A stretch of 64,000 nt of DNA from Minisyncoccota bacterium (GCA_021734945.1 JAIPIA010000001.1:4465-68464), one strand, 5' to 3'. Numbered from the stretch's first letter, positions 44,779 through 63,779 are shown. The notes: a model not told the origin generated them from the sequence alone. Program-made: numbers and translations.

Positions 44779-44910
44779 ATTGTCGGTCGCGAGGTCTAGT
44801 CTTTGTAGCCTTAAAGCAGTTTTTGAAAATTGATTTACCCCTATAAAAATGGTAATCTAATCGCACGTTTATATAGGCAAATGTAGCAAATGGCTACAGT
44901 AAACAAATAT

Positions 44911-44981
44911 TGGGAGATCGTCTAATGGTAGGACAACAGATTTTGGTTCTGTTTATCTAGGTTCGAGTCCTAGTCTCCCAG
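44911..44981 (+). tRNA. tRNA-Gln (anticodon TTG)
   Basis: Hand-folded. Acceptor TGGGAGA/TCTCCCA, D arm GTCT-AATGGTA-GGAC, anticodon arm ACAGA-TTTTGGT-TCTGT (U33, TTG, G37), T arm CTAGG-TTCGAGT-CCTAG, discriminator G. Confidence 0.75.
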
Positions 44982-45123
44982 CAATCATGTGAGCCCGACC
45001 GAGACGGCTAAAATCGCCGTTTAGGTCAGTAAGTTTTGAAGACCAGTCATGGTCTCGAACTTTCACAAATCACACGATACTATTCCGTCCATTGCATACA
45101 CAGCTCCGTGCAGTATCCAGAAC

Positions 45124-50569: not shown

Positions 50570-51757
50570 ATGCGAAAAAAGATACTGGTAGCCACTGTCC
50601 TCGGATTGATGGTGATTGTACCCATAATCAGTCTGAAAGTGACAGGTTTAGAGTCAATAAAAGATACAAATCAAGATATTGTGGTCGCTAAGTCACTGAG
50701 CGATCTTCCTGTTGGCGAAGTTAAGGAGTATCAAGTACAGAAGGGTGATACTTTTGCCGGTGTCATGACCAATATGGGTATTCAATATGACGAAGCTCTT
50801 GCCATCATGAACTCTTCAAAAGATACTTTTGATTTCACTAAAATAAATGCTGGAAAGTTCTTGAAGTTTGTGTTTGTTAACGAAGCTTTTGCAGCGATGG
50901 AATATCCGCTCAACAGCGACACTGTCATTCATGTTAAAAGAGAAGATGATTCTTTCAAGATAACTGAGGAAGATATTCCGTACAATATTGAGATGACGAC
51001 AGCTAAGGGCACAATTACTGATTCTTTGTTTGTTGCGGCTCAGGATGTTGGAGTTGAGGATAAGGTTACGTTAAAACTTGCAGATATATTTTCTAGCGAC
51101 ATAGACTTTGCTACTGATATCCAAGACGGCGATTCGTTCTCTGTCGTGTATGAAAAGAGAACGTTAGATGGCAAGCCTGCCAGTGCGGGAAAAGTGCTTG
51201 GTGCAAAATTTACAAATGACGGTACAACTTACACCGCTTTTCGTTACAATGATGGATTCTATAATGAAGACGGAGAGTCACTCACTCGTCAATTTCTCAA
51301 ATCTCCACTCAACTATGCTCGTATAAGTTCGGGATTCAGTTTTAAGCGAACAAATCCAGTGACTAAACAGGTTACTCCTCATCGTGCTATTGATTACGCC
51401 GCATCTGCAGGTACTCCTGTTATTGCAACTGCTGATGGAACGGTCTCTGTTGCTGGTTCAAAAGGAGGTCTGGGAATAACGGTAGAGTTAAAGCATGGCG
51501 AGTATCTTACGCAATACGCTCATCTCTCAGATATTGCGGACGGTATTAAAAAGGGCGTCGATGTAAAACAAGGAGACATTGTCGGCTACGTAGGTTCAAC
51601 AGGCATTTCAACTGGTCCACATTTGCAGTATGCAATGTTTAAGAATGGTAACCCTATCAACCCATTAGATACGGATTTCCCAAGAGGAGAAGCTTTGAGT
51701 GATTCTGAAAAACCTAATTTTGATTCTGTAAAAAATAAATTACTAGGTCTTATCTAG
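50570..51757 (+). CDS. M23-family metallopeptidase (LytM/lysostaphin-like), secreted
   Basis: HRAIDYAASAGTPVIATADG, HGEYLTQYAHLS, GYVGSTGISTGPHLQYAM (HxxxD ... HxH motifs). Signal anchor. Confidence 0.8.
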   Translation: MRKKILVATVLGLMVIVPIISLKVTGLESIKDTNQDIVVAKSLSDLPVGEVKEYQVQKGDTFAGVMTNMGIQYDEALAIMNSSKDTFDFTKINAGKFLKFVFVNEAFAAMEYPLNSDTVIHVKREDDSFKITEEDIPYNIEMTTAKGTITDSLFVAAQDVGVEDKVTLKLADIFSSDIDFATDIQDGDSFSVVYEKRTLDGKPASAGKVLGAKFTNDGTTYTAFRYNDGFYNEDGESLTRQFLKSPLNYARISSGFSFKRTNPVTKQVTPHRAIDYAASAGTPVIATADGTVSVAGSKGGLGITVELKHGEYLTQYAHLSDIADGIKKGVDVKQGDIVGYVGSTGISTGPHLQYAMFKNGNPINPLDTDFPRGEALSDSEKPNFDSVKNKLLGLI

Positions 51758-53070
51758 TTGCTGAGTGATAGCACCTTATCCTTAAGTGTCAGTTTACTTT
51801 TTAGGTGACTCAGTAGTTCTCGCTTTTCGTATAGAGGTCTCTTTCTTAGAATGTGCTTGGCGTAGTTGCGTATATCTATATCTTTTATTTTTACTTTCTC
51901 TTTGACTTCTTTTCCTAGTACTGATTCTTGAAATTCATTATGAGCTTCTATTTCAGCTCTAATTCTGTCTTTCATTCCGATTTCATCTAGTGATATCACA
52001 TCAAGTACATTTGCTAATTGTTCTATCAAGTCTTCTTCTCGTACATACCCGCATTGGCAATTTTTATCCTTAAATTTAGTGCATCCATAGTAGACGTAGC
52101 GATTTGTCGTTCCGTCTTTAAGTTTCTTGAATTTCTCGTCAGCGGTTATGCCTGATCCACATAGTCCGCAGGTAATCATCTTGGTAAAGGCGAACTCCTT
52201 ATCCTGAGTCCTTGTTAGGTGATCGTTGCTTATCTTATCCTGCACTTGGTTATATAAATCTTTCGTGATGATCGGCTCGTGCTTTCCGACATACCATTGT
52301 CCGCTTCCTTTCGGGTACTCAAATTCGCCGTAGTAGAAAGTGCTTTTGAGAATTATGTACACATTACTCAGTGTCAGTGGCTTTCCGTGCTTTGTCTTGA
52401 ATCGTATGTCCTCAGCTAACCACTTGAAGAGCTTCCGTCCAGACCATCCGTCGTATGCTACTTTCTCGAACATCTGTTTAATCACATGAGCTCTTTGCTC
52501 ATCGGGCATCACCTCACACTTTCTGTTCCTGTCAGAGTGGCTCAGATAACCCGTTGGGGGAACTGATGGCCATAATCCCATTTCGCATCTCGCTCGAAGT
52601 CCTCGCTTTACGTTCACCATCTTGTTGTCGTTCTCCAGTTTCGCTTGGCTTCCCAAAATCATCAGAAGGAATTTCTCATTTGGATTGTTTGTGAACTTCT
52701 GTCCGTAAGTGCGGATTTCGTGCAGAAGCTTCTGATCCATCAGGTCTACTACCGACCCAAGGTCACCAGCATTTCTGCTTAATCGGTCGGGTTCCCATGT
52801 CAGGATTCCGTTAAATTTTCCTTGTCTTATTTCACTGATCAGCTCGTTATATACAGGTCTTTGTCCAACCTCTTTTGATGAGTGCGATTCTCGCTTTATT
52901 TCGACTATTTCTAAACCCTCTCGCTCGGCGAGACTTATCATCTCTTTAACCTGCGATTCTATTGATAATGCTTGTTTGTCTTCTTGCTCTGTTGATTTGC
53001 GAGCATAGAGGCAGTACTTAATCGGTATGACCTCCTCAGGCTTCTCTGGTTGCTTGTTTTCTATCTTCAT
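51754..53070 (-). CDS. large serine recombinase (resolvase/invertase catalytic domain, recombinase domain and zinc ribbon); probable integrase of the downstream island
   Basis: N-terminal YARKSTEQED...SIESQ catalytic Ser motif, DRLSRN, C-terminal CGLCGSG...YYGC zinc ribbon. 438 aa. Confidence 0.85.
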   Translation of the reverse strand: MKIENKQPEKPEEVIPIKYCLYARKSTEQEDKQALSIESQVKEMISLAEREGLEIVEIKRESHSSKEVGQRPVYNELISEIRQGKFNGILTWEPDRLSRNAGDLGSVVDLMDQKLLHEIRTYGQKFTNNPNEKFLLMILGSQAKLENDNKMVNVKRGLRARCEMGLWPSVPPTGYLSHSDRNRKCEVMPDEQRAHVIKQMFEKVAYDGWSGRKLFKWLAEDIRFKTKHGKPLTLSNVYIILKSTFYYGEFEYPKGSGQWYVGKHEPIITKDLYNQVQDKISNDHLTRTQDKEFAFTKMITCGLCGSGITADEKFKKLKDGTTNRYVYYGCTKFKDKNCQCGYVREEDLIEQLANVLDVISLDEIGMKDRIRAEIEAHNEFQESVLGKEVKEKVKIKDIDIRNYAKHILRKRPLYEKRELLSHLKSKLTLKDKVLSLSN

Positions 53071-53169
53071 ACCTACATTGATGACGCTGATTGCTCTAGG
53101 AGTCTAGAGCGTCCTAGACTGGCTAAGTCGGTAACTTTTTAGGCTCAAAATCTTTCAAAATTAGCATTT

Positions 53170-56100
53170 TTGTTGTATGATTTGTTGCAAATATACACCA
53201 TGAGTGCCTCAAAATTTAAATTTTTAAAAGATGCTCCTATTGGAAAAGAATCCCAAGGTTTTTTTGATTTCTATCATAAAAATATAGCCCCAGCATTAAA
53301 GACAATTGTTGAAAATGATTCATGTGTTCATACTGTTGGTTTATTTGGGAAATGGGGTAGCGGAAAAAGTACTATTATCAAACTACTTAAAGAGGGTGGA
53401 GTTGAGGATGCGACCATCGTAGAATTCGACTGTTGGAAATATGAAAAGGATTCACTGAGAAGACAGTTGCTTTTACAGATCGCTAAAGATCTTGGTGTGA
53501 GTAGAAAGAATATCGATGAACTAGAAAAAGAGCTTTATTTTTCTTTGAGCGAAACTATAAATGAAAAAGTATCAATTTCTTGGGGATATCTAAAGAAAGT
53601 GGCACTTATTTCTTTCGCTTTTCTTCTGCCGGTAGGTTTTATAACATGGCAAATATTTCCTGATGTTGCTACACAATGGAAACTTTGGGTTGGCACTAGT
53701 TTTTCTCTAGTCTTATCCATTGCATTGTTAGTAGAGAAGGTGTTGGGTGATGATTTCAAAAAAATTATAATGGTCTCACCAATAACTGCCTCAAAAGCCC
53801 AACTCAGCTCCCCAGAACAGTTTGAGCGTTCTTTTATAAAGATATTAAAAACTACAAAAATCGATAAACAAAAAATTATTATTGTTATTGATAACCTTGA
53901 TCGTGTTGAATCGAAGGTAGCAACTGAGGTTTTGGCAACTCTCAAAACATTTTTAGAGATAAGTGAAGATAATTTGGGAAAAAAGAAGGTGATATTTCTT
54001 GTTCCGTGCGACTTTGATGCGATTAAAAAATCTGCTCCAAGTGCTGAGTTAGCGGATGAATTTTTAAGAAAGATTTTTAATGTAGTGATTTGGACACCTG
54101 AGTTCATCGATGTCGATATTCGAACATTTATAAAAGAACAAATAAGTCAGACTGGCGATATCAAAACTCACCTTGATGAAGAAGATGTAATTTTGGTCAT
54201 TGATTCCGCCTTTGCTAATAGCCCCAGAGAAATAAAACAATTTATAAACAATCTCATTTCTTCACTGATTGTTGCTTCTGAAACGGAAGTAAAAGATATT
54301 GTAGAAAAGAATGTTGCTTATATGGCAAAAGTACTTGTACTCATGCATAAATATCCAAAGGCATTTCAGAATCTAAAAAAGCTTTGGTATGCTCCTGAGG
54401 AAATTATTAATACTTATGAAGAGGTTCTCATAAAACATGAAAAAGAGGAATTTAACGAAGGCTTCAAAAATTTCATGCTGAGCACAAGCCGGATCACAGT
54501 ACTAGATGCTGAACCTTTCATTTATTTAAAGAAGCCTGTTGTATCTAATCGATTAACTAATGCAGACCCCATCCGACTTAGCCTTATTGAAGCAAAAGAG
54601 ACGGAGGCAAAAGACTTGGTGCAATCTGAGACTGACAAAGTTGCCCTTGTTGAGTTCATTATATCTATTTTGAATAAGTACCAGAACCAACCCGAAATAC
54701 TGAAGAACGTATTTATTACGCAACTTTCGATATTTAAAGAACTCAATATTTCAATTACAAAAAATTATTTAAACAAAGTAGGATCTCTTTTGGACGGTAA
54801 GGTATGGCCATATTTTCAAGATCTAAAGACAGACTTGATTTTTAGTTTTATTATCGCAGATGCTCAATTAGAACAGAATTTAAAGAAAAACATCCTAGAG
54901 CGGTATGTCTTGGCTTTAACTTCTACAGAAGAGTTTAAGAATTTTCAAAAAATAGAAATAGCAAAATTGATAATTAAAAGTTTGATTGAACATCAAAATC
55001 TGCTTACACCTGATCAAAAAATTAAGTTTGCACAGTCAATTGAACAAATATATACAGGTAAAGAAGACGTGATTGAATTATTTGTAAAAGCTGATGACCG
55101 TGGGCAGTTAATAACTAAGAAGACATTAGAGCAAGTAATAACAGGTAGTACTTTAGAGAATTTCTCTCTTAGGAAGGATCTATTCGTTAGCTTTCAGAAA
55201 TTGATTTCACTAAGAAAACTATTTTCTTTAATCTACGTTAAATTATCAGAATTATTGTCTCAACATAATACAAAACAGCCAGCTTTCGGTGAAGAAAAGG
55301 AACAGTATTTAAAACAGGTTCTTGAGCTAATATCCAAATATAAAGATGACCTTGCTCAGGTTCCAAAACCTGACGTAATTGAACTTGTAAGGTTGAATAT
55401 ACAAACGTTTAATAATATTAGCTCTTGGGATCAGCGGATTACGATTATCAATATCCTACAGCACTTACAGAGTATTGCAGATGATGGTCAAAAAGCGGAG
55501 ATAGGGTCTTTACTGAGTCAGTTTATACAGAATGCGACACCTGCGACTGTTCAAAAAATGTTTGCTTATTGGAAAATAACTTACATTCAATCTCTTATTA
55601 CAAAATTATTGACGCAATTACAACCGAGAATATCTTCAGATAAGATTTTTGCAAAAGTTATTTATGATTTTGCATCAACTGAGACCAGATTGGCAATATT
55701 AAAGTATCTTATTACTAACGAACATGATGCAACTATCGACTTTATCGGAACTCTTGCTGAAGGTGATTTTAATCGGGTTGAGGTAGTAAAAATGTTCTTG
55801 GATAAAGCTAAAACACTTCAAGCTAGCGATCGTGTAAGAATATATGATTTCATTTCTGAAAAAATTAGTATAAATGATGAGGTCGCTATAAAAGACCTTG
55901 TTGTAGAGCAAATCCGAGAATTACTTAATCAAGATGAACAAAATGTTTCCAAGGTTGGTTTTGATTTCTTTTGTAAGTCAGATTTTCTCGGGGAAGCTAA
56001 AAAGCGAGATGCTATCATAAAACCCGCGCTTGAATATCTTAGACAAGCTGGAAAAACTATAACTGAACAAAATAGTTACACGCTAAAAGCCATAGCCTCT

Positions 56101-56421
56101 TTTTTCAATAAACTACAGGAGACACCGCAAAAAGATTTTGTGTACTCTCTATTCAATATGTTGAGACCTGATAGAAATATGCAAACTATTGAAACTAGTC
56201 TTGAGAATTTGTTACTTGTTAAACCAGCTTTTGGCACATACGAGAAAGATTACAAAGATTTACTTGAGTCCCTAAAGAATTGGACTCAAGAAAACACAAA
56301 AACAAAGGTAATAGAGGCCATTGTTAGTCTTAAATCATTAGGTAATTTAAGTACCGAAGAAAAAGACTTTTGGAACTCAGTTGATGAGTTACTACCCAAA
56401 AAAGGAGAATCAGAAGTTTAA
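53170..56421 (+). CDS. KAP-family P-loop NTPase with TM helices inserted in the NTPase domain (Tmn-like); start possibly at 53200
   Basis: Walker A GLFGKWGSGKST, FDCWKYEKD, two hydrophobic helices (LISFAFLLPVGFITW, GTSFSLVLSIALLV) between Walker A and Walker B IIIVIDNLDR, KAP motif NSPREIKQFINNL. About 650-aa alpha-helical C-terminal region. Confidence 0.8.
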   Translation: MLYDLLQIYTMSASKFKFLKDAPIGKESQGFFDFYHKNIAPALKTIVENDSCVHTVGLFGKWGSGKSTIIKLLKEGGVEDATIVEFDCWKYEKDSLRRQLLLQIAKDLGVSRKNIDELEKELYFSLSETINEKVSISWGYLKKVALISFAFLLPVGFITWQIFPDVATQWKLWVGTSFSLVLSIALLVEKVLGDDFKKIIMVSPITASKAQLSSPEQFERSFIKILKTTKIDKQKIIIVIDNLDRVESKVATEVLATLKTFLEISEDNLGKKKVIFLVPCDFDAIKKSAPSAELADEFLRKIFNVVIWTPEFIDVDIRTFIKEQISQTGDIKTHLDEEDVILVIDSAFANSPREIKQFINNLISSLIVASETEVKDIVEKNVAYMAKVLVLMHKYPKAFQNLKKLWYAPEEIINTYEEVLIKHEKEEFNEGFKNFMLSTSRITVLDAEPFIYLKKPVVSNRLTNADPIRLSLIEAKETEAKDLVQSETDKVALVEFIISILNKYQNQPEILKNVFITQLSIFKELNISITKNYLNKVGSLLDGKVWPYFQDLKTDLIFSFIIADAQLEQNLKKNILERYVLALTSTEEFKNFQKIEIAKLIIKSLIEHQNLLTPDQKIKFAQSIEQIYTGKEDVIELFVKADDRGQLITKKTLEQVITGSTLENFSLRKDLFVSFQKLISLRKLFSLIYVKLSELLSQHNTKQPAFGEEKEQYLKQVLELISKYKDDLAQVPKPDVIELVRLNIQTFNNISSWDQRITIINILQHLQSIADDGQKAEIGSLLSQFIQNATPATVQKMFAYWKITYIQSLITKLLTQLQPRISSDKIFAKVIYDFASTETRLAILKYLITNEHDATIDFIGTLAEGDFNRVEVVKMFLDKAKTLQASDRVRIYDFISEKISINDEVAIKDLVVEQIRELLNQDEQNVSKVGFDFFCKSDFLGEAKKRDAIIKPALEYLRQAGKTITEQNSYTLKAIASFFNKLQETPQKDFVYSLFNMLRPDRNMQTIETSLENLLLVKPAFGTYEKDYKDLLESLKNWTQENTKTKVIEAIVSLKSLGNLSTEEKDFWNSVDELLPKKGESEV

Positions 56422-56513
56422 AATTAGACCTAATTCCCTTACTGGGATACCTGTAGGTAACTTTATTTTTTCTTTCTACACATTTTATCTGATTCAAGCT
56501 AACATGTAGATTA

Positions 56514-57335
56514 ATGGCAAAGAAGATTTTAGCTTACATAAAACAAAAACCTCACTTTTCACACAAAGATTTTGTACTGTATCTTGGTGATTCTACTGAT
56601 ATTCTCAACTCACTTCCTGAAGGTTCAATAGATATGATTTTTGCAGATCCTCCGTACATGCTTTCAAACGGAGGCTTTACTGTTCATGCTGGAAAAATGG
56701 TAAGTGTCGACAAAGGAAACTGGGACAAGAGTAAGGGATTTGATGAGGATTATGCTTTTCACAAAAGATGGTTGGAAGCGTGTCATAGGGTTTTAAAACC
56801 ACATGGCACCATCTGGGTTAGTGGCACCTATCACTCTATCTATCAATGTGGTCATGCAATTCAATCAATTGGCTTCCATGTCTTAAACGATATTACTTGG
56901 TTTAAACCAAACGCATCACCAAACCTTAGTTGCCGTTTCTTTACCGCAAGTCACGAGACGATTCTTTGGGCTAGGAAACATAAGAAAGCAAAACACACTT
57001 TCAATTACGATTTGATGAAAAATGGTGAATGGGCAGAAGATTTTATAAAGAAGCCTAATTTACAAATGCGTTCAGTGTGGGCAGTTAATCCTCCAAAGAA
57101 AGAAGAGAAGAAATTTACAAAGCACCCAACACAAAAACCCCTTTCACTTCTTGAGAGAATTGTCTTAGCTAGTACTAATAAGGGAGACATTGTACTCGAC
57201 CCATTTACTGGAAGTTCAACAACAGGAATCGCCGCGAAAAAGCACGGACGAAAGTTTATCGGTATTGATACTGAGGAGAAGTACTTAGATCTTTCTCAAA
57301 AACGCTTTCAAGATTTAGTCGGGGCTGGTAATTAA
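56514..57335 (+). CDS. beta-class N6-adenine/N4-cytosine DNA methyltransferase (DpnA/M.HinfI-like)
   Basis: Motif IV IFADPPY precedes motif I LDPFTGSSTTGIAAKKHGRKFIGID (beta permutation). Also TKHPTQKPLSLLERI. Confidence 0.85.
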   Translation: MAKKILAYIKQKPHFSHKDFVLYLGDSTDILNSLPEGSIDMIFADPPYMLSNGGFTVHAGKMVSVDKGNWDKSKGFDEDYAFHKRWLEACHRVLKPHGTIWVSGTYHSIYQCGHAIQSIGFHVLNDITWFKPNASPNLSCRFFTASHETILWARKHKKAKHTFNYDLMKNGEWAEDFIKKPNLQMRSVWAVNPPKKEEKKFTKHPTQKPLSLLERIVLASTNKGDIVLDPFTGSSTTGIAAKKHGRKFIGIDTEEKYLDLSQKRFQDLVGAGN

Positions 57336-58173
57336 CTATTACCACTTCGGATATTTTTCCACGTTTATCAGATTTTGAATTAATCATTCTATTGGCGTAT
57401 ACAGGAATCTGTTTATATCCAGAATATATTTCTTGAATAAAAGGTGCACTTGAATTGCTGAGCATTACATATACACCTTTTTTGTCGAGTTCAATAAATA
57501 AGTCTCGAAGCTTTATTTGGTCATCTTTAGAAAAAGAATCTTTACTGTAACTAGTAAAACTGGATGTCTCGGAAAGTGGGTGATACGGCGGATCAAAATA
57601 TACAAAATCTCCAGCTTTAGCATTCTTTACAGCATCAACAAATGAACCGCTCGTTATTTTAGCATTTGAAAGTATTTTAGAAACTGATCGCAGGTTTTCC
57701 TCGTCTACAATTTTTGGATTCTTGTAACTACCAATCGGTACATTGAATCCACCTTTTGAATTTTCTCGATACACACCATTAAATGCTGTCTTATTGAAGA
57801 AGAGGAAGTAGAGACTCTTATCAAAGTCTTCATGAGATAATGAATTATATCTTTCCCGTAATGCATAATAAACCTCTTTGCGAGCAATCTCGTCTTTTTT
57901 GAGAAAATCTTCCTCAAGTTTCTTAAGAGACTTTATCAATCCCTCTACATCATTCTTTATGTGAATATAAGTCTGAGCAAGTGTTTTATTTATATCGTTG
58001 ATATGTGCCTTTTTAGGATTAATTGAAAAAAATACCGCACCTCCACCGATAAAGGGTTCAAAGTATGAATTAAATTCTTTCGGGAAAAGACTCTCGAACT
58101 GAGCAAGAAGTTGTCCCTTTCCACCTACCCATTTTAGGAATGGTTTTGCTTTTTTAGTGTTATTTAACTTCAC
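57256..58173 (-). CDS. alpha-class Dam-family N6-adenine DNA methyltransferase (DpnM/GATC-type)
   Basis: PFLKWVGGKGQLL, motif I YFEPFIGGGAVFF, INDIN, motif IV VYFDPPYHP. The 3' 80 nt overlap the convergent beta-methyltransferase gene. Confidence 0.85.
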   Translation of the reverse strand: MKLNNTKKAKPFLKWVGGKGQLLAQFESLFPKEFNSYFEPFIGGGAVFFSINPKKAHINDINKTLAQTYIHIKNDVEGLIKSLKKLEEDFLKKDEIARKEVYYALRERYNSLSHEDFDKSLYFLFFNKTAFNGVYRENSKGGFNVPIGSYKNPKIVDEENLRSVSKILSNAKITSGSFVDAVKNAKAGDFVYFDPPYHPLSETSSFTSYSKDSFSKDDQIKLRDLFIELDKKGVYVMLSNSSAPFIQEIYSGYKQIPVYANRMINSKSDKRGKISEVVIVNYQPRLNLESVFEKDLSTSPQYQYR

Positions 58174-58248
58174 GGTTCCATTTTATCATTTTGGAATCAA
58201 TAAGCCTATATCATTGTTATTGGACTGATTTTGTGATTAAATTGAATC

Positions 58249-58773
58249 ATGAAAATAGGAGGGATTGGAGGTGCTAATACAAAATCAGGGCTCCATTTTG
58301 AAGGAAGGGTTGATTTCCTTGAGGTTCTTAAGACTGTGTCTGGATACGAAGTAAAGGAAGATGGATCAATCTTATTTCAAGGCAAGGTGGTTGCTCTCAA
58401 CCTTCGAAAGAGTCGACTCTACAAATACCTTGAAAGCAAGGGTGTAAACCATAAAGAAATTCTATCAAAGAAGCTTCTACCTGATGATGCGATCCTGATT
58501 CTTGGCACTAATGCATTTTATGTAATTGAAATTAAGTTTCAGAGTGTCGCAGGATCGGTAGATGAAAAATTACAGACATGTCATTTTAAAAAACGACAGT
58601 ATGAAAAGCTAATGGATTCACTCGGTGTAAAAGTTGAGTATATTTATATTCTAAGTGAGTGGTTCCAAGCACCTGCATACAAAGATGTACTCGCATATAT
58701 CAAGGAGGTTGACTGCGATTATTTCTTTGAAGAAATCACACTAAATCGACTAGGTCTTCCGTCTCCAAAATAA
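58249..58773 (+). CDS. candidate type II restriction endonuclease (PD-(D/E)xK fold), 174 aa
   Basis: LPDDAILILGTNAFYVIEIKFQ gives a textbook PD-x(13)-EIK signature. Adjacent to the two methyltransferases. Confidence 0.4.
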   Translation: MKIGGIGGANTKSGLHFEGRVDFLEVLKTVSGYEVKEDGSILFQGKVVALNLRKSRLYKYLESKGVNHKEILSKKLLPDDAILILGTNAFYVIEIKFQSVAGSVDEKLQTCHFKKRQYEKLMDSLGVKVEYIYILSEWFQAPAYKDVLAYIKEVDCDYFFEEITLNRLGLPSPK

Positions 58774-59340
58774 TTATCTGAAGCCTGGCATCGCTGACTG
58801 GAGCACTTCGGTATAATGTTTGTTTCCATCGATATAATCTCTCAGTATTAATAGAAGATTTTTAAACATATATGCTCCTGGGTTTATTTTCTCGTTTTTA
58901 CAGAACAGCTCAATCATTATTGCTACATAGTCCAAAGAAAGTGTGTAGTCTTGTTCGATGTGTGCATATCTTGTCGTAATTTCATTGATAGTTTCAAGTT
59001 GATATTTATTTCTGTCTTCAACAGATATAAATGGTGATGTACGTTCGTAGAAATCGATATAGTACTGAACTATAGATCGTACATCATCTCGGTACTGCGG
59101 AATTTTTAACAATAAATCTACCACCCAAAAAGTGTGAGTTGGTGGAGTCATTACTTTACTAGCTCCAGGCACGAGAATTTTTATAACAAAGTCTATGTCT
59201 GGTCTCGTGCCTCGATTACCTTGGAATAATCCAATCAAGGTTCCGTCACGAGTTGCATATGTTTTAAAGGCGACGAGGCGAGGTCTCAGCTGTCCGAGGT
59301 CAGTTCCATTATAGTATTTTGAATTATAGATGTGTGGCAT
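58774..59340 (-). CDS. hypothetical protein (188 aa); possible second R-M or defense component
   Basis: Tail-to-tail with the PD-(D/E)xK gene, with abutting stop codons. No recognised motif. Confidence 0.35.
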   Translation of the reverse strand: MPHIYNSKYYNGTDLGQLRPRLVAFKTYATRDGTLIGLFQGNRGTRPDIDFVIKILVPGASKVMTPPTHTFWVVDLLLKIPQYRDDVRSIVQYYIDFYERTSPFISVEDRNKYQLETINEITTRYAHIEQDYTLSLDYVAIMIELFCKNEKINPGAYMFKNLLLILRDYIDGNKHYTEVLQSAMPGFR

Positions 59341-59510
59341 TAGGTCAATTATAGCAAAAAGTAGACTGTTGGTAACCCGAGCTTCGCAAGGCTCTATATC
59401 TAAGCTAGAGTCTAGATAGATAGCTCTGTTTTTGCTATCATGTACTTATACAACAAAGACCTAACCCCTTAGAAAACGCTTAGTTTCCTAAGGATATGGT
59501 CGGAATAATA

Positions 59511-59680
59511 AAACCGCTACAGTATAGAAGACTCCTCGTCAGAGTCACTGTAGCGGTCGCGTACCCGAAAGGGTATGTGGGTCTGATCGAAAGATTGGAT
59601 CACAATGGCGGGGAGTCTTCTGTCTCACGACTCAAGGCTTCTTGCTAATTACCAGCATTAAGTCAAAACCGCTACAGTGA
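59511..59680 (+). repeat. GC-rich structured element bounded by 13-bp direct repeats (aaaccgctacagt) with nested inverted repeats
   Basis: The direct repeat sits at 59511-59523 and 59666-59678, with an inverted copy actgtagcggt at 59547-59557. gaagactcc (59527) pairs with ggagtcttc (59612). tacccGAAAgggta is a tetraloop hairpin. GC content is far above the flanks. Confidence 0.4.
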
Positions 59681-60150
59681 CTCAAAAAAATAATGATCTG
59701 GATAAGATCAATAAAAATATCTACATTAAAACCTATGTGGTCAGTATTGTTTCGTACCTGATTCTCGTAGGACTCATCTCAACCTTTCTTGAAAGTCCGT
59801 TTATTCAAACACTTTTAGTTACAGCAGGAGCTCTTCTTGTTTGGACTATATTCAAATCGATCATTGGTTCAGTTACATTCAATTTGTTCTTTAGAAATGA
59901 TCTAATTGAAAAGTACCTACACGAGTTTAAGGCGAATGATTTTCCTAAACCACAGGATTATGAAATGGAAGAGGTTGAATCGTACTTACAAACAATTGCG
60001 ATGAATCCTGATAATCATCCAAAAAATATTGTTGCCACAGGAATGCTTAGCGAATTTGGGCACGCCCGTACTCAAGGAAGTATGCTCGTCTTACTCAGAC
60101 TGACAAAGGTTATGAAAAAGGCTTTGAGGAAATATAGCTACTTCAGTTAA
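59677..60150 (+). CDS. hypothetical membrane protein (GTG start inside the direct repeat; start uncertain)
   Basis: 157-aa ORF with two TM helices. Confidence 0.3.
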   Translation: MTQKNNDLDKINKNIYIKTYVVSIVSYLILVGLISTFLESPFIQTLLVTAGALLVWTIFKSIIGSVTFNLFFRNDLIEKYLHEFKANDFPKPQDYEMEEVESYLQTIAMNPDNHPKNIVATGMLSEFGHARTQGSMLVLLRLTKVMKKALRKYSYFS

Positions 60151-60550
60151 TAGGTTATCCACATTCGATATCTCAAAAACTCTATAAAGTAGCGTTATTT
60201 TGAAAGTGACAGAAATGAGTCTCAAAAAGACACTTGCAGTCTCATGATTTGTGATAAAATAATCACAGAAGCACTAAGACATCCCCCATATTGAAACGGC
60301 TGAGAATCAAATCAGCTAAGTCTATGCAATGTAGCCTAGATGGAAAACCCACAGAAACTATCTTCTGATAGTAGAATGACGCTGGTGACCATATCTGGCA
60401 ATAGAAATTTTTAACTCCAAAGGTTAAAGGTTCTATTGCTTGCAGGTCGACACAATAGACAAAAACCCGCCTTTGGTATTAAAGATAACTTTGATATCGT
60501 AGGCGGTTTTTTGTTGCTTCTAGATTACAAATTAATTATCTAGCAAGTAT

Positions 60551-61873
60551 ATGAACAAAGAAAATCTAAAGATTGTGTACGTCTCAATCTACAGCCTTGT
60601 CGCAAATGACAAGAATCCACGCAAATGGAGTGAGGAACAAAAGGAACAGCTCAAGGAAAGCATCAAACGATTCGGCAACGTCGATCCGATAATCGTGAAC
60701 ACACACGAGGAAAGGAAAAATATAATCGTCGGAGGACATTTTCGTGTGGAAGCGTGTAAGGAACTGGGATACAAGAATATGCCAGTCGTATTCGTGAATC
60801 TCACACCAGAAAAAGAAGCAGAACTAAACCTTAGACTCAACCGCAATCAAGGAGAGTTTGATCTTGAGATGCTCGCTGAGTTCGACAGCTCAATGCTTCT
60901 TGATATTGGATTTACTTCAGAAGATATCGACGATATTTTTCCAACTGACAAAAATGAAGAGCAATTTGATCTACAAAAGGAATTGGATAAGCTCGATATC
61001 ACAGTCGAAGCCAAGAAAGGTGAAATATACGATCTCGATGGGTCACGACTTATGATTGGTGATTCTACAATCGAAGCAGATATGTTGAAACTCATAGGTG
61101 ACAACAAAGTGGACATGGTTCTTACAGATCCTCCATATATTCTTGATTATCTAAAAGGTAAAGGTCGTGGTAAAGATGGTCCGACTGTCGGGTTCGGTTC
61201 AAAGAAGAATCGCAGATATTTGGAGACTGATGTTTTACCTGAAAACTTCTCTGATCTATGGATGGCAAATGTCGCAAAGGTACAAAAACCAGACTTCTCG
61301 ATTATTATCTTTGAGAATCCTAAAAATCTACGAACCATATGGAATGCACTCGAGGTTCATTGGAAATACAGAAACACTATCACATGGCATGTACCAAATC
61401 GTATGCAGGGATTTTCTGCTTCAAACAAGTTCTTCAACAAGACAGATATCGCACTCGTTGGATCTTCAGGAGAAGTAAATCTCAATCTTGAACCAGAAGA
61501 AGGCTTGTTCCAAAACGAATATGAGAATGCAATATTTGCCACTTCAGGAAAACCTCACTTTGAGCCGTATGAGAAAGGAAAGAAAATCTGTCCGACAGAC
61601 TTCATATCTCATACCGCCGCAGATAAAAAGTCTTCAGGGCAAGAAATTATCTTCGGAACAAAACCAATTGAGCTCCTCATTCCATATCTGAAAGTACTCA
61701 CCAAGAGAAATGATCTCATTCTTGAACCATTCGGAGGAAGTGGAAGTACGCTCATCGCTTCAGTGAAGATGGGTCGCCGTTGCTTCATTATGGAAAAATC
61801 ACACGTATATGCAGAAGTCATTATGAACCGCTGGGAGAAAGAGACTGGTAAGAAGCGTAAGAAAATTAACTAG
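60551..61873 (+). CDS. ParB-like nuclease domain fused to a beta-class N6A/N4C DNA methyltransferase (phage/plasmid-type orphan methylase)
   Basis: N-terminal ParB/Srx fold (IVYVSIYSLVANDKNPRKW...IIVGGHFRVEACKELG). Then methyltransferase motif IV VLTDPPY and motif I LEPFGGSGSTLIAS. Confidence 0.8.
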   Translation: MNKENLKIVYVSIYSLVANDKNPRKWSEEQKEQLKESIKRFGNVDPIIVNTHEERKNIIVGGHFRVEACKELGYKNMPVVFVNLTPEKEAELNLRLNRNQGEFDLEMLAEFDSSMLLDIGFTSEDIDDIFPTDKNEEQFDLQKELDKLDITVEAKKGEIYDLDGSRLMIGDSTIEADMLKLIGDNKVDMVLTDPPYILDYLKGKGRGKDGPTVGFGSKKNRRYLETDVLPENFSDLWMANVAKVQKPDFSIIIFENPKNLRTIWNALEVHWKYRNTITWHVPNRMQGFSASNKFFNKTDIALVGSSGEVNLNLEPEEGLFQNEYENAIFATSGKPHFEPYEKGKKICPTDFISHTAADKKSSGQEIIFGTKPIELLIPYLKVLTKRNDLILEPFGGSGSTLIASVKMGRRCFIMEKSHVYAEVIMNRWEKETGKKRKKIN

Positions 61874-61875
61874 AT

Positions 61876-62262
61876 ATGGCAGTAGATCTAAAGATCAAGA
61901 AGCAAAAGGAAGTTCTGCTTGAGCATCTGCGTACTGTGCCGATTGTTGAAGTAGCTTGCAAGAAAGGAGGAATCTCCAGAGCTACTTTCTATCGCTGGTG
62001 TAGTGACGATGAAGAGTTCAAGACAGAAGTTGAGAACGCCAAGGTAGATGGTGTTGAGAACATAAACGATATGTCGGAAGCTCAACTCATTTCTCTCATC
62101 AGAGAGAAAAAGTATCAAGCTATAGCACTGTGGCTCAAGAACAATCACTATAGATTTATGTCGGAGGACAAGCAAAACCTCATCAGGAAAGTTCAAAAGA
62201 AAACCGAGCTTAATCTCCAACAGAAGGAGTTACTCAAAGAAGCCCTCAAACATTACAAATGA
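61876..62262 (+). CDS. terminase small-subunit-like HTH protein
   Basis: N-terminal HTH ACKKGGISRATFYRWCSDDEEF, typical of TerS and phage DNA-binding proteins. Overlaps the next gene via ATGA. Confidence 0.4.
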   Translation: MAVDLKIKKQKEVLLEHLRTVPIVEVACKKGGISRATFYRWCSDDEEFKTEVENAKVDGVENINDMSEAQLISLIREKKYQAIALWLKNNHYRFMSEDKQNLIRKVQKKTELNLQQKELLKEALKHYK

Positions 62263-63449
62263 AAAAACTATCTCCAGAAGTAATACAGGCAGTCATTAAT
62301 GACACTGCCGTGCGAACTGCACTCGTGTACCAAAATCACGAGGCATTTTGCAGTATCTACCTCAGGAGACATTTGAAATATGAGTTTGCTTGGTTCCATA
62401 AGGAGATGTTTCGGATTACCGAGTCATACCAACACAAGCTCAACGTATTCATGGCATTTAGAGGTTCAGGAAAGTCGACAATCCTGAACCTTTCTAATGT
62501 CCTGTGGAGTATTACAGGAAAGCATCAAAAGAAATTTGTAATAGTAGTAAGCAAGACTCGTGTTCAGTCACAATCTCATTTCGATAACATAAAGCAAGAA
62601 CTCGAAGAAAACGAATTACTCAAACATGACCTCGGTCCATTCCAAGCGACCAAGGAAGATTGGGGTGCATACACTATTGAAATACCAAAGTACGGAGCAA
62701 AGATTATGTGCATTGGAGCCAATCAAAACATACGAGGACTCAAGTATCGTGATCACCGTCCTGACCTAATTATCTGTGACGATATCGAGGATATAAACTC
62801 ATTTACTGACAGAGACCAAATCAAGACTCTCTATGACTGGTTTATGGGAGAACTCTGGTCTATCGGTGACGAAACTATAAATATTGTTGTTCTTGGAAAC
62901 TTGCTCAGCCCATCTTCAATCATGATTAAGTTGTACAAAGCTATTAAGAAAAAAGAAATGCCGGGCATATTCAAAGCGTATCCGCTTCTCGATGATTACA
63001 ATCGCATTCTATGGTCAGCAAAGTATCCTGATGCAAAGACTATTAAAGAAATTGAGCGAGGTTTGCCACGACCACGACGAGATGACTTATATACAATATT
63101 CTCTCGTGAATATTTGTTAGATATGTCCTTGGTTGATACTGATGAGATGCTAGAGAAGCACAAAACACCAATACGTGCTGGCGGAAAGACAGTAAAGAGT
63201 TTTGATATCTCTGCTCCAATGTGGGCTATTGGAACAGTGTGGTATTTTCCTGATGATTTAAGTAATTTCAATTTAGCCGTTGATGATCTGGATGGTTATC
63301 CACTTGAGAAATATATTGAAATTGAAAAGGAATATATTAAATTACAGCAAGAGAAGTATCCAAACTATCAGGTAAAGGTGAGAGGCAGTCAAGGTGAGTC
63401 ACGTGGGTTTGAGGATCACCCTGATAGACCGATGAGGTATAGGGGGTAG
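62259..63449 (+). CDS. terminase large-subunit-like ATPase (short; nuclease domain appears truncated or divergent)
   Basis: Walker A AFRGSGKST, Walker B LIICDDIED, with TerL-like spacing. Only 396 aa. Confidence 0.45.
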   Translation: MKKLSPEVIQAVINDTAVRTALVYQNHEAFCSIYLRRHLKYEFAWFHKEMFRITESYQHKLNVFMAFRGSGKSTILNLSNVLWSITGKHQKKFVIVVSKTRVQSQSHFDNIKQELEENELLKHDLGPFQATKEDWGAYTIEIPKYGAKIMCIGANQNIRGLKYRDHRPDLIICDDIEDINSFTDRDQIKTLYDWFMGELWSIGDETINIVVLGNLLSPSSIMIKLYKAIKKKEMPGIFKAYPLLDDYNRILWSAKYPDAKTIKEIERGLPRPRRDDLYTIFSREYLLDMSLVDTDEMLEKHKTPIRAGGKTVKSFDISAPMWAIGTVWYFPDDLSNFNLAVDDLDGYPLEKYIEIEKEYIKLQQEKYPNYQVKVRGSQGESRGFEDHPDRPMRYRG

Positions 63450-63515: not shown

Positions 63516-63779
63516 ATGAATTCAAACAAACAAAAGTTAATTCGACGCTTAAAGATTGTAGAGGGTCAGGTACGAGGATTACAGGAGATGCTTGCAAAAG
63601 ATGCATACTGCATCGACATAATTACTCAAACATCGGCGGTCAAACAAGCACTCTCAGGTATTGAAGATGCTCTAATGGAAAATCATTTGAGTACATGTGT
63701 AATTTCTCAAATAAAGAAAGGTAAAGAAAAAACAGCTGTTCAAGAAATACTTAAGGTTTATCAACTTAAAAGAAAATAA
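63516..63779 (+). CDS. csoR: CsoR/RcnR-family metal-sensing transcriptional repressor (copper-sensitive operon repressor)
   Basis: LIRRLKIVEGQVRGLQEML..DAYCIDIITQTSAV..AL.....HLSTCV has the conserved C-H-C metal ligands and the DUF156 fold. 87 aa. Confidence 0.8.
   Translation: MNSNKQKLIRRLKIVEGQVRGLQEMLAKDAYCIDIITQTSAVKQALSGIEDALMENHLSTCVISQIKKGKEKTAVQEILKVYQLKRK

What the first reader, a model, noticed from the sequence alone, without database searches (positions are those of the whole stretch)
53170..56421. KAP-family transmembrane NTPase (Tmn-like) next to a serine recombinase and an R-M cassette: candidate single-gene defense module
The 1083-aa protein has the defining KAP features. Two TM helices sit between Walker A (GKWGSGKST) and Walker B (IIIVIDNLDR), and the NPRExKxFxN motif is present. 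A long, uncharacterised C-terminal helical region of about 650 aa follows. KAP NTPases with membrane insertions are described as enriched in defense islands; the single-gene system Tmn is of this type, by my recollection of the defense-system literature. Here the gene lies between a large serine recombinase and a GATC-type R-M system, a classic defense-island context. In what looks like a reduced genome, retention of such a large gene argues for function.
Basis: partly seen in the sequence, partly recalled or inferred. Interest (0 to 1): 0.7.

Follow-up and report, generated by a model that had tools for sequence, protein, structure and literature searches.

The report
Membrane-anchored KAP NTPase defence-island gene
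This is an intact 1073-residue membrane-anchored KAP-family ATPase with a long helical-repeat tail, carried on a mobile island in a tiny-genome (Pacebacteria) bacterium. Its relatives usually sit at the end of restriction-modification operons, so it is very probably an uncharacterised anti-phage gene of a known general type, but not a Tmn.

Summary
ORF 53170-56421 probably starts at ATG 53200, giving 1073 aa. It is a KAP_NTPase (Pfam E=1.5e-26) with two hydrophobic helices between Walker A and Walker B. The rest is an all-alpha, HEAT-like solenoid of about 670 aa (AF2 pLDDT 85.5).

It is not Tmn. It scores below threshold on Pfam YobI-ATPase (17.7 bits against a cutoff of 27). It gets no PADLOC Tmn hit and no match on Escherichia plasmids.

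Full-length relatives are rare: about 100 clusters at 50% identity among 1.84 billion proteins. They are spread patchily over Patescibacteria, other bacterial phyla and archaea. The solenoid occurs only in this architecture.

In 15 of 26 loci (first sample) and at least 4 of 17 (second sample), the gene is the last or an embedded gene of an R-M operon. The R-M types include I, III, IIG-like and EcoRI-MTase+GmrSD, and the junction is often 5 bp or less, or a 4-bp overlap. Two co-occurring type I operons with 87-88% identical HsdM and HsdR carry KAP alleles only 35% identical, which resembles HsdS swapping.

In the window the gene stands alone as cargo of an island of about 11.7 kb carrying a large serine recombinase. 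It is followed by two DNA methyltransferases and an unverified PD-ExK nuclease candidate.

Verdict: a new member of the known class of KAP/YobI-type membrane NTPase antiphage proteins. The mechanism is inferred, not shown.

The parts
53200..56421 (+). KAP-family membrane NTPase with C-terminal solenoid; CDS of 1073 aa, likely true start ATG 53200 (mechanical ORF starts at TTG 53170)
53347..53370 (+). Walker A / P-loop, GKWGSGKS (aa 50-57); G55 and K56 invariant in 88 homologues
53599..53658 (+). Predicted transmembrane helix 1 (aa 134-153), preceded by KK
53683..53733 (+). Predicted transmembrane helix 2 (aa 162-178). It has a conserved small/polar face (G/S165, S/G169, S/T171). The loop between the two helices is only about 8 residues.
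53875..53904 (+). Walker B, IIIVIDNLDR (aa 226-235); D231, N232, D234 and R235 invariant
54220..54252 (+). SPREIKQFINN motif (aa 341-351), a KAP signature; P342, R343 and N350 invariant
54397..56394 (+). C-terminal HEAT/ARM-like alpha-solenoid (aa about 400-1065), found only in this architecture
53154..53181 (+). Sigma-70-like promoter match (TTCAAA-16-TATGAT) just upstream of the KAP start; a consensus match only
53094..53119 (.). Overlapping palindromes (CTCTAG..CTAGAG; GTCTAG-N6-CTAGAC) in the recombinase-cargo intergenic region. The block is conserved in sister islands L092 and L087. Possible operator.
51754..53070 (-). Large serine recombinase (438 aa), left end of the island. It is 84% identical to the recombinase of L092 and 55-63% identical to those of L007, L049 and L087.
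56514..57335 (+). N6_N4 (beta-class) DNA methyltransferase, 273 aa
57256..58173 (-). Dam-family (D12) adenine methyltransferase, 305 aa; convergent with the previous gene and overlapping it by 80 nt
58249..58773 (+). 174-aa ORF with P78-D79...E94-x-K96 (PD-(D/E)xK), divergent from the Dam gene. Candidate restriction nuclease, unverified.
58774..59340 (-). 188-aa ORF with no detectable family
60551..63449 (+). Island backbone shared with sister islands (L049, L091, L102, L105): ParB_N-MTase fusion (60551-61873), a 128-aa HTH protein (61876-62262) and a 396-aa protein (62259-63449)
44911..44982 (+). tRNA-Gln, with holB at 43609-44778. The pair recurs to the left of homologous recombinase islands in other Patescibacteria, suggesting an integration hot spot.
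63516..63779 (+). CsoR-type metal-sensing repressor; first apparently chromosomal gene to the right of the island

Best explanation
The gene encodes a self-contained, membrane-tethered innate-immunity protein of the KAP P-loop NTPase class. It is carried as cargo of an island of about 11.7 kb bearing a large serine recombinase (51754-63449). The island lies in a variable region downstream of tRNA-Gln in a Candidatus Pacebacteria chromosome.

Shown:
- An intact cytoplasmic ORC/Cdc6-like AAA+-type NTPase core with invariant Walker A, Walker B and PRE motifs.
- A hydrophobic helical hairpin inserted between Walker A and Walker B, joined by an 8-residue loop.
- A family-specific HEAT-like solenoid of about 670 residues.
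- Purifying selection over the whole length.
- A rare and patchy phyletic distribution.
- Recurrent placement at the 3' end of, or inside, R-M operons of different types, and among other defence genes.
- Exchange of divergent alleles within otherwise near-identical R-M operons.

Inferred:
- The solenoid is the sensor and binds a phage or plasmid protein.
- Binding changes the nucleotide state and oligomerisation of the NTPase ring at the membrane.
- The clustered transmembrane hairpins, or the membrane-tethered complex itself, then disturb membrane integrity or ion balance, or block an envelope-associated step of infection. Replication stops. This parallels what is reported for Tmn and PifA.
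- Co-transcription behind R-M genes makes it a second layer against phages that escape restriction.

In this window the upstream R-M genes are absent. The gene sits directly behind the conserved recombinase-proximal intergenic block, with its own promoter-like site.
For: Architecture and motifs.

Selection: pN is 0.09-0.37 against saturated pS of 0.74-0.91. The solenoid changes about 2-2.5 times faster than the NTPase domain. Conservation is 0.55-0.60 in the NTPase domain and 0.37-0.44 in the solenoid.

Distribution: only 104 representatives at E<=1e-3 among 1.84 billion, nearly all 1050-1110 aa with the match at about 400-1090. Full-length relatives occur in Patescibacteria, Bacteroidota, Atribacterota, Omnitrophota, Gammaproteobacteria and several archaea.

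Context, first sample:
- Co-directional R-M genes lie upstream in 15 of 26 loci.
- Junctions range from a 4-bp overlap to a 5-bp gap in L087, L020, L092, L091, L005 and L017.
- The gene is embedded between DUF4391 and the Mod-Res genes in L010 and L015.

Context, second sample: at least 4 of 17 loci (L109, L112, L113, L125).

Other defence genes in the neighbourhoods: GmrSD, PDC-S53 helicase, a weak partial Ppl-type hit (about 120 of 894 model positions), an AriA-like ATPase, RhuM, Fic, HepT, HigB/PemK and a DrmE domain.

Allele swapping: L087 against L109, from the same metagenome, gives HsdM 88%, HsdR 87%, HsdS 26% and KAP 35% identity.

Precedent: KAP NTPases fused to unknown C-terminal regions protect against phages and need both Walker B and the C-terminal region (PMC13552941). 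Tmn has the same layout: two transmembrane helices within the P-loop domain and a solenoid sensor (PMC13001434).
Against: There is no experiment on this family.

No recognisable effector domain (nuclease, protease, pore-former) is present.

The transmembrane residues are poorly conserved (24% identity). This fits a membrane anchor better than a specific ion channel of the kind proposed for Tmn.

The inter-helix loop has only 8 residues, so there is no extracytoplasmic sensing surface.

Walker B is D-N rather than D-D/E (N232 invariant), so fast hydrolysis is not assured.

The solenoid is conserved in length and is alignable down to about 20% identity. This is less variable than expected for a rapidly retargeted sensor.

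E. faecalis EF_KAP was reported not to act by abortive infection, so a membrane-collapse mechanism is not general to KAP defences.
Confidence: 0.6

Rival explanations
1. R-M-dependent guard or accessory subunit. The protein does not act alone. It monitors or regulates the neighbouring R-M complex at the membrane, for example by sensing anti-restriction proteins or loss of R-M activity, as PrrC does with EcoprrI. It fires only in that context.
For: The gene is operonic with R-M genes in 15 of 26 and at least 4 of 17 loci. There are 4-bp overlaps with hsdR or the MTase gene in L087, L109 and L020. In L010 and L015 it is embedded within the operon.. Sister islands put ABC-type ATPases (one AriA-like, one with a weak partial Ppl-type hit) in the same slot. 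The KAP allele is exchanged together with HsdS in L087 against L109.
Against: Close relatives (57-73% identical) are attached to unrelated R-M types: type I in L003 and L087, type III in L091 and L092, and EcoRI-MTase+GmrSD+helicase in L001. A specific physical partner is therefore unlikely. Eleven of the first 26 loci, including this window, have no co-directional upstream R-M gene. No conserved partner gene was found by all-against-all clustering of neighbours.
Confidence: 0.2
2. Mobile-element function rather than host defence. The protein serves the recombinase-borne island, for example by excluding competing elements or incoming DNA at the membrane, or by stabilising the island, much as PifA sits on the F plasmid.
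For: It is adjacent to a homologous large serine recombinase in the window, L007, L049, L087 and L092. The recombinases are 55-84% identical while the KAPs are 24-64% identical. L108 and L128 also carry such a recombinase. An unrelated PifA-like KAP abuts a member of the same >=90%-identity recombinase cluster in L105. The island backbone includes a ParB-MTase and an HTH protein typical of mobile DNA.
Against: Most loci lack the recombinase (19 of 26 and 15 of 17). Sister islands with the same recombinase carry other cargo instead of KAP (L102). The family is nearly absent from viral contigs (5 weak hits to the N-terminal domain), and no full-length member is found on plasmids.
Confidence: 0.08
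3. It is a true member of the Tmn (YobI-family) defence system, and therefore acts through a decameric pore, Mg2+ export and plasmolysis.
For: The layout is the same: two transmembrane helices within the P-loop domain and an alpha-solenoid C-terminus. Some relatives give weak YobI-ATPase hits of 25-29 bits. Tmn was described as a KAP NTPase in 2023.
Against: The window protein scores 17.7 bits on YobI-ATPase (cutoff 27) against 97.8 bits on KAP_NTPase. No PADLOC Tmn hit was found for six members at E<=10. The tblastn search of plasmids returned no Escherichia record at E<=1e-3. Tmn as detected by PADLOC is found in Pseudomonadota, Bacillota and Bacteroidota.
Confidence: 0.05
4. Housekeeping membrane NTPase of CPR bacteria, unrelated to conflict.
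For: The reading frame is intact, well conserved and under purifying selection in a reduced genome.
Against: The family has only about 100 clusters at 50% identity. Its distribution is patchy across phyla and across the two prokaryotic domains. The neighbourhood differs in nearly every locus and is dominated by R-M and defence genes. Here it lies inside a recombinase island, flanked by housekeeping genes.
Confidence: 0.02

Closest known systems
Tmn (YobI-family transmembrane NTPase, single-gene antiphage system; PMC13001434)
   Same: An N-terminal P-loop NTPase with two transmembrane helices inserted between Walker A and Walker B. A long alpha-helical solenoid C-terminus proposed as the sensor. 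Stand-alone gene of about 1000-1300 aa. Found in varied contexts without a fixed operon.
   Different: A different Pfam family (KAP_NTPase passes, YobI-ATPase fails). No PADLOC Tmn hit. The inter-helix loop is 8 residues, against about 22 in Tmn. Transmembrane residues are poorly conserved. It is frequently operonic with R-M genes, whereas no conserved operon architecture is reported for Tmn. The host range centres on Patescibacteria.
[quoted passage not shown]
   Same: A KAP NTPase domain with a transmembrane helix within it, followed by a C-terminal region of unknown function. These proteins are shown experimentally to protect against phages and to require both Walker B and the C-terminal region. 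They are found next to serine recombinases.
   Different: Those were baited with small serine recombinases and have shorter C-termini (EF_KAP has 322 aa). Here the recombinase is a large one, the C-terminus is a family-specific solenoid of about 670 aa, and there is no experimental test.
PifA (F plasmid, T7 exclusion), QatA (Qat system) and PADLOC candidate PDC-S20
   Same: All are KAP-type NTPase domains. They are the best PADLOC matches to the NTPase part: PifA 5e-13 and QatA 6e-11 for the window protein, and PDC-S20 up to 5e-23 for relatives.
   Different: The matches cover only the NTPase domain. The NCBIfam QatA score is 62 bits against a cutoff of 600. There are no QatBCD neighbours. PifA lacks transmembrane helices. 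PDC-S20 models are about 450 aa and lack the solenoid.
RADAR RdrA and BREX BrxC (solved defence ATPases)
   Different: They are soluble and have no transmembrane insertion. They act with partner enzymes (RdrB; the other BREX proteins). Sequence identity is 12-13%.
PrrC/RloC and other genes embedded in type I R-M loci
   Same: An NTPase-containing defence gene inserted in, or appended to, an hsd operon and acting as a back-up to restriction. This is an analogy of context.
   Different: PrrC and RloC are ABC-ATPase plus anticodon-nuclease proteins. This protein has no nuclease domain and is membrane-anchored. It also associates with type III, IIG-like and type IV genes.

Membership tests
KAP family P-loop NTPase (Pfam PF07693) | Score above the Pfam gathering threshold on the KAP_NTPase model | tested here: met
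   93.8 bits full length and 97.8 bits for the N-terminal 420 aa, against a cutoff of 20. All listed homologues carry PF07693.
KAP family P-loop NTPase (Pfam PF07693) | Walker A and Walker B intact, plus the conserved (N)PRExKxF motif | tested here: met
   GKWGSGKS, IIIVIDNLDR and SPREIKQFINN are present. G55, K56, D231, N232, D234, R235, P342 and R343 are invariant in 88 sequences.
KAP family P-loop NTPase (Pfam PF07693) | Two (or four) transmembrane helices inserted inside the NTPase domain (Aravind et al. 2004, from my own knowledge; the paper could not be opened) | tested here: met
   Hydrophobic segments at aa 134-153 and 162-178 lie between Walker A and Walker B. AF2 shows a helical hairpin. 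The feature is conserved in position across the family. The prediction rests on a hydropathy scale only; no dedicated topology predictor was available.
Tmn / YobI family | Score above threshold on Pfam YobI-ATPase (PF20693) | tested here: not met
   17.7 bits against a cutoff of 27. Of three relatives tested, one is below threshold (24.9 bits) and two just pass (27.4 and 29.2), while all score far higher on KAP_NTPase.
Tmn / YobI family | Detected by the PADLOC Tmn model (the operational definition used in PMC13001434) | tested here: not met
   No Tmn hit for the window protein or five relatives at E<=10. The paper states that Tmn is called by PADLOC.
Tmn / YobI family | Two transmembrane helices within the P-loop domain plus an alpha-solenoid C-terminal domain | tested here: met
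Tmn / YobI family | Decameric pore, trigger-stimulated ATP turnover, Mg2+ export and plasmolysis | not testable with these tools
   Needs biochemistry and microscopy. Multimer modelling was not available.
Qat system (QatA) | NCBIfam QatA equivalog cutoff met, and QatB/C/D neighbours present | tested here: not met
   62 bits against a cutoff of 600. No QueC- or TatD-like neighbours were found in the window or in relatives.
PifA | Full-length similarity to the PifA model | tested here: not met
   The PADLOC PifA hit covers only aa 10-119 and profile positions 7-120 of 720.
Type II R-M system (the neighbouring 'GATC cassette') | A cognate methyltransferase plus a restriction endonuclease | tested here: inconclusive
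   A Dam-family MTase (302 bits against 115) and an N6_N4 MTase are present. No endonuclease family was hit. The 174-aa ORF has a PD..ExK motif and a weak PDDEXK_11 hit (E=1e-3, below cutoff). GATC specificity is inferred from the family only.
Mobile island carrying a large serine recombinase | A recombinase at one end, variable cargo, a shared backbone, and the same chromosomal neighbourhood in different genomes | tested here: met
   Recombinases are 55-84% identical in five of the loci first examined. A ParB-MTase/HTH/~400-aa backbone is shared with L049, L091, L102 and L105. tRNA-Gln lies to the left in L007, L049, L087 and L105, and holB in L049, L087 and L105. The att sites and exact island ends were not determined.

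The most novel reading that the evidence does not exclude
The family may be an exchangeable 'second specificity cassette' of R-M operons. On this reading it is a membrane-tethered solenoid sensor, co-transcribed with type I, type III or IIG-like restriction genes, and swapped between strains in the same way as HsdS. The supporting case is two operons with 87-88% identical HsdM and HsdR but only 35% identical KAP, from the same metagenome. It would detect phages that evade or inhibit restriction and then shut the cell down at the membrane. It would also be one of the few dedicated non-R-M, non-CRISPR immune sensors characteristic of CPR/Patescibacteria.
Probability: 0.2. Interest if true: 0.7.

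Novelty: new member of a known kind. Interest (0 to 1): 0.42.

Why it matters
CPR/Patescibacteria are thought to rely mostly on R-M systems for defence, and they have few experimentally tractable systems. A rare, full-length-conserved KAP-solenoid protein that rides on recombinase islands is a concrete candidate for a second defence layer in these organisms. It is repeatedly appended to R-M operons of different types.

It also gives a natural test set for how membrane-anchored KAP/YobI NTPases sense and act: divergent alleles sitting in near-identical operons. For annotation, it shows that 'Tmn-like' calls based on architecture alone are unsafe. The family is KAP, not YobI, and current PADLOC models detect only its NTPase domain, through PifA, QatA and PDC-S20 models.

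Tried and rejected
- Foldseek against AFDB50 was not installed, so no structural comparison with predicted YobI or Tmn models was possible.
- Aravind et al. 2004 could not be opened by DOI or by the PMC id I guessed. Its content is cited from memory only.
- A literature search for KAP together with hsdR, hsdS and NTPase found nothing. Makarova 2013 has no relevant mention. PMC9122126 has no whole-word 'KAP'.
- A profile search of PDB sequences with the 88-sequence alignment gave only Walker A matches to ABC transporters.
- Foldseek against the PDB with the full model returned only generic HEAT/ARM solenoids with TM-scores of 0.35 or less.
- A scan of viral contigs gave 5 weak hits to the N-terminal domain only.
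- tblastn against plasmids gave 13 partial hits, none full-length and none from Escherichia.
- PDB sequence searches with the 174-aa and 188-aa ORFs found nothing. NCBI names them hypothetical.
- dN/dS could not be estimated because synonymous sites are saturated. Only pN against pS is reported.
- All-against-all clustering of neighbours found no conserved partner gene immediately downstream. I therefore rejected a fixed two-gene system.
- The PifA-like KAP next to the recombinase in L105 is not a member of this family.
- The hydrophobic-peak count is crude and splits some helices.
- Per-locus Pfam assignment in the second sample is incomplete. Only family counts and local phmmer matches to seed proteins were available, so 4 of 17 is a lower bound.


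Full report
**1. The observation**

The ORF 53170-56421 (+) is real. The mechanical ORF starts at TTG 53170. An alignment of 88 full-length homologues begins about six residues before the conserved FKFLKD. ATG 53200 (MSASKFKFLKD...) is therefore the likely start, giving 1073 aa. This exact protein is in NCBI as 'KAP family NTPase [Candidatus Pacebacteria bacterium]' on a 383-kb contig.

Pfam KAP_NTPase matches aa 31-352 at E=1.5e-26, 93.8 bits against a cutoff of 20. The features lie at these positions:

| Feature | Residues |
|---|---|
| Walker A, GKWGSGKS | 50-57 |
| Hydrophobic segment 1 | 134-153 |
| Hydrophobic segment 2 | 162-178 |
| Walker B, IIIVIDNLDR | 226-235 |
| NSPREIKQFINN | 340-351 |

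An AlphaFold2 model built on the alignment has mean pLDDT 85.5. It shows a helical hairpin (H128-152 and H156-190) inserted in the NTPase fold. From about residue 360 to 1065 it shows an uninterrupted array of alpha-helices with pLDDT above 90.

The flanks of the hairpin are basic (KK before, EK..KK after) and the connecting loop has 8 residues. This places the NTPase and the solenoid in the cytoplasm and leaves almost nothing outside. The hydrophobic insert is kept in position across the family: the Walker A to Walker B distance is 134-210 residues (median 173). At least two hydrophobic segments are present in 66 of 71 members. Its sequence is poorly conserved (24% identity), apart from interfacial Trp and Lys residues and a small/polar face on helix 2 at G/S165, S/G169 and S/T171.

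**2. What the parts resemble**

Foldseek matches the C-terminus only to generic HEAT/ARM solenoids such as the PP2A A subunit, CAND1, karyopherins and UTP10/20, with TM-scores of 0.35 or less. No PDB entry is related by sequence beyond the P-loop.

A phmmer search with residues 400-1073 against 1.84 billion representative proteins returned only 104 hits at E<=1e-3. Almost all are 1050-1110 aa long with the match at positions about 400-1090. The solenoid is therefore exclusive to this architecture. The family is rare, at about 100 clusters at 50% identity.

**3. Is it Tmn?**

No. A 2026 preprint classifies Tmn as a YobI-family NTPase with two transmembrane helices inside the P-loop domain, a decameric assembly and a C-terminal solenoid sensor. 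It defines Tmn operationally through PADLOC (PMC13001434). The tests here gave:

- The N-terminal 420 aa score 17.7 bits on Pfam YobI-ATPase (cutoff 27) against 97.8 bits on KAP_NTPase.
- Neither the window protein nor five relatives hit a PADLOC Tmn model, even at E<=10. The best PADLOC hits are PifA, QatA and PDC-S20, all confined to the NTPase domain.
- NCBIfam QatA scores 62 bits against a cutoff of 600.
- tblastn against 72,556 plasmids gives 13 partial hits and no Escherichia record, although Tmn is reported to be common on F-type plasmids.

The resemblance to Tmn is therefore one of architecture, and possibly of mode of action. It is not family membership.

**4. Distribution and selection**

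Full-length relatives (24-73% identical, 1055-1110 aa) occur mainly in Patescibacteria: Paceibacterota, Adlerbacteria, Staskawiczbacteria, Saccharibacteria and Gracilibacteria. They also occur in Bacteroidota, Atribacterota, Omnitrophota, Cloacimonadota, Stahlbacteria, Planctomycetota and Gammaproteobacteria, and in Halobacteriota, Aenigmatarchaeota and other archaea. This patchy pattern indicates horizontal transfer.

Nonsynonymous differences (pN 0.09-0.37) are far below saturated synonymous differences (pS 0.74-0.91). The solenoid changes about 2-2.5 times faster than the NTPase domain (conservation by region). The gene is thus maintained by selection along its whole length.

The family is practically absent from viral contigs.

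**5. Genomic context of relatives**

This is the main new result.

In a first set of 26 non-redundant loci, 15 have R-M genes immediately upstream on the same strand:

| Upstream genes | Loci |
|---|---|
| hsdM-hsdS-hsdR, then KAP | L003, L012, L087 |
| hsdM-hsdS(-x), then KAP | L005, L021 |
| Type III mod-res, then KAP | L092, L091 |
| Eco57I/MmeI-type MTase (± SNF2 helicase), then KAP | L013, L017, L020, L023 |
| EcoRI-MTase-GmrSD(-helicase), then KAP | L001, L008 |
| SNF2-(GmrSD)-DUF4391-KAP-Mod-Res (KAP inside the operon) | L010, L015 |

Junctions are tight: a 4-bp overlap in L087 and L020, and gaps of 3-5 bp in L092, L091, L005 and L017. Two further loci, the window and L022, have an N6_N4 MTase just downstream.

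Pfam counts over 55 upstream neighbours are led by N6_Mtase (7), Eco57I (7), ResIII (5), MmeI_Mtase (5), Methylase_S (4), HSDR_N (3) and GmrSD_N (3). Downstream neighbours include N6_N4_Mtase (3), RhuM (2), a resolvase, ArdC, a relaxase, DrmE_C, HepT and Fic.

A second, more divergent metagenome sample gave at least 4 of 17 loci with co-directional upstream R-M genes (L109, L112, L113, L125). It also gave a divergent Dam gene (L121/L122), and large serine recombinases in L108 and L128. The figure of 4 of 17 is a lower bound because per-protein annotation was limited.

Three features argue that the gene is an autonomous module and not a subunit of a particular R-M enzyme:

- KAPs 57-73% identical to the window protein are attached to type I, type III or EcoRI-MTase+GmrSD+helicase operons.
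- Eleven of the first 26 loci lack co-directional upstream R-M genes.
- No conserved partner gene emerged from clustering all neighbours.

A telling case comes from two contigs of the same metagenome. L087/L090 and L109 carry type I operons with HsdM 88% and HsdR 87% identical. Their HsdS is only 26% identical and their KAP only 35% identical. The KAP allele has been exchanged in the same manner as the specificity subunit, as expected for a determinant under arms-race pressure.

**6. The locus in the window**

The gene is cargo of a mobile island. The large serine recombinase (51754-53070, -) is 84% identical to that of L092. There the recombinase is followed by HTH-Mod-Res-KAP. It is 55-63% identical to the recombinases of L007, L049 and L087, where the adjacent KAPs are only 24-64% identical to the window's.

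The recombinase-proximal intergenic block, including palindromes at 53094-53119, is conserved between the window, L092 and L087. In the window KAP follows it directly, with a promoter-like site at 53154-53181. The window thus looks like an R-M-less version of the same cargo slot.

Members of the same recombinase cluster (at least 90% identity) carry other cargo. L102 has Mod-Res followed by a 915-aa ABC-type ATPase in the KAP position. That protein gives only a weak partial PADLOC Ppl hit, E=4.5e-25 over about 120 of 894 model positions. L105 has HsdM-x-HsdS-(AriA-like ATPase)-HsdR. An unrelated PifA-like KAP lies on the other side of that recombinase.

A backbone of ParB_N-MTase, a 128-aa HTH protein and a protein of about 400 aa (window 60551-63449) recurs in L049, L091, L102 and L105.

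To the left lie holB, tRNA-Gln (44911-44982), Dsb genes, a P-type ATPase and an M23 peptidase. To the right lies a CsoR repressor. tRNA-Gln lies to the left of homologous islands in L007, L049, L087 (133 bp from the recombinase gene) and L105, and holB in L049, L087 and L105. This indicates a hot spot. The rest of the window is housekeeping: rpoB, rpoC, dnaG and an AddA-like helicase.

**7. The neighbouring 'R-M cassette'**

There are two methyltransferases. One is a beta-class N6_N4 enzyme (56514-57335). The other is a Dam-family enzyme (57256-58173). They are convergent and overlap by 80 nt.

No endonuclease family was detected. The 174-aa ORF at 58249-58773, divergent from the Dam gene, contains P78-D79...E94-I-K96 and a sub-threshold PDDEXK_11 hit. 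It is a reasonable but unverified nuclease candidate. GATC specificity is an inference from Dam-family membership.

**8. Mechanism**

Shown:
- The architecture: a cytoplasmic AAA+-like KAP NTPase, a membrane hairpin and a cytoplasmic solenoid.
- Intact catalytic motifs.
- Selection, rarity and horizontal spread.
- The defence and R-M context, and allele exchange.

Inferred, by analogy with Tmn and PifA, with the experimentally validated KAP-fusion defences that need both Walker B and the C-terminal region, and with RdrA/BrxC-type oligomeric sensors: the solenoid recognises an invader protein, the NTPase domain switches or oligomerises at the membrane, and infection is halted by a membrane-level effect.

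Caveats:
- No effector domain is present.
- Transmembrane residues are weakly conserved, which suits an anchor better than a selective channel.
- Walker B is D-N with an invariant Asn.
- EF_KAP was reported not to act by abortive infection.

I put 0.6 on 'autonomous antiphage/anti-MGE sensor-effector of the KAP class', 0.2 on an R-M-dependent guard role, and less on the other rivals.

**9. Novelty**

KAP NTPases were predicted to be conflict genes in 2004 (from my own knowledge of Aravind et al.). They were shown to defend against phages in 2026, and Tmn provides a mechanistic model. This protein is therefore a new, uncharacterised member of a known kind. Current defence-system models detect only its NTPase domain.

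What is new here is the family definition (a solenoid exclusive to this architecture), its concentration in CPR bacteria, its habitual position at the tail of diverse R-M operons, and the HsdS-like allele exchange. I found no paper describing this.

Noticed in passing
window 51754-63449; L087, L092, L102, L105, L049, L091: A family of islands carrying a large serine recombinase in Patescibacteria. They share a backbone (recombinase ... ParB_N-MTase, 128-aa HTH protein, ~400-aa protein) and a cargo slot. The slot holds type I or type III R-M operons plus an accessory NTPase: this KAP, an AriA-like ATPase, or an ABC-type ATPase with only a weak partial Ppl-type hit.
   Followed up: partly
window 43609-44982; L007 3460-3531; L049 5568-5641; L087 2383-2456; L105 14552-14623: tRNA-Gln lies to the left of the recombinase islands in several genomes, and holB in three of them (L049, L087, L105). 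In L087 the tRNA is 133 bp from the 3' end of the recombinase gene. This suggests an integration hot spot. The att sites were not found.
   Followed up: partly
L087 4043-13213 against L109 2057-11243 (same metagenome, 3300025323): Two type I R-M operons have HsdM 88% and HsdR 87% identical, but HsdS is 26% and the appended KAP 35% identical. The KAP allele is swapped in the same way as the specificity subunit.
   Followed up: yes
window 53094-53119: Overlapping palindromes (CTCTAG..CTAGAG and GTCTAG-AGCGTC-CTAGAC) lie in the recombinase-cargo intergenic region. The block is about 80% conserved in L092 (3094-3151) and is recognisable in L087. Possible operator.
   Followed up: no
window 57256-57335: The convergent N6_N4 and Dam methyltransferase genes overlap by 80 nt at their 3' ends.
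   Followed up: no
window 58249-58773: A 174-aa hypothetical protein has a PD..ExK motif (P78-D79, E94-x-K96) and is divergent from the Dam gene. It is a candidate small restriction endonuclease. Its 90%-identity cluster has 12 members, and none has an informative (functional) name.
   Followed up: partly
window 59367-59692: A conserved non-coding stretch. 59367-59454 matches L087 17552-17636, immediately after a tRNA-Arg. 59511-59692 matches L091 5171-5354. It may be a module junction or an att-like remnant inside the island.
   Followed up: no
window 48604-50511 and 63516-63779: A P-type (CopA-like) ATPase and a CsoR-type metal repressor lie on opposite sides of the island. The island may have split a metal-resistance locus.
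   Followed up: no
L105 11307-14444: A different, PifA-like KAP NTPase (1045 aa; PADLOC PifA 1.6e-27) overlaps the 3' end of a recombinase from the same >=90%-identity cluster as the window's. It shares only motif-level similarity with the window protein.
   Followed up: yes
L001 5200-7914: The 904-aa helicase between GmrSD and KAP is a full-length match to the PADLOC candidate PDC-S53 (E=0). The same locus has a phage capsid gene (SU10_MCP) downstream.
   Followed up: partly
L133 2341-5345: One family member is split into two ORFs of 492 and 521 aa. This is either a frameshifted pseudogene or an assembly error.
   Followed up: no
window 53890-53892 (N232): The family's Walker B is hhhhD-N-[LI]-D-R, with the Asn invariant in 88 sequences instead of the usual acidic residue. 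It may act as a slow switch rather than a motor.
   Followed up: no
window 2930-9469: A 2179-aa protein with FN3, Ig-like and glycine-rich domains and a C-terminal peptidoglycan-binding domain. It is probably a giant surface protein of this CPR bacterium.
   Followed up: no
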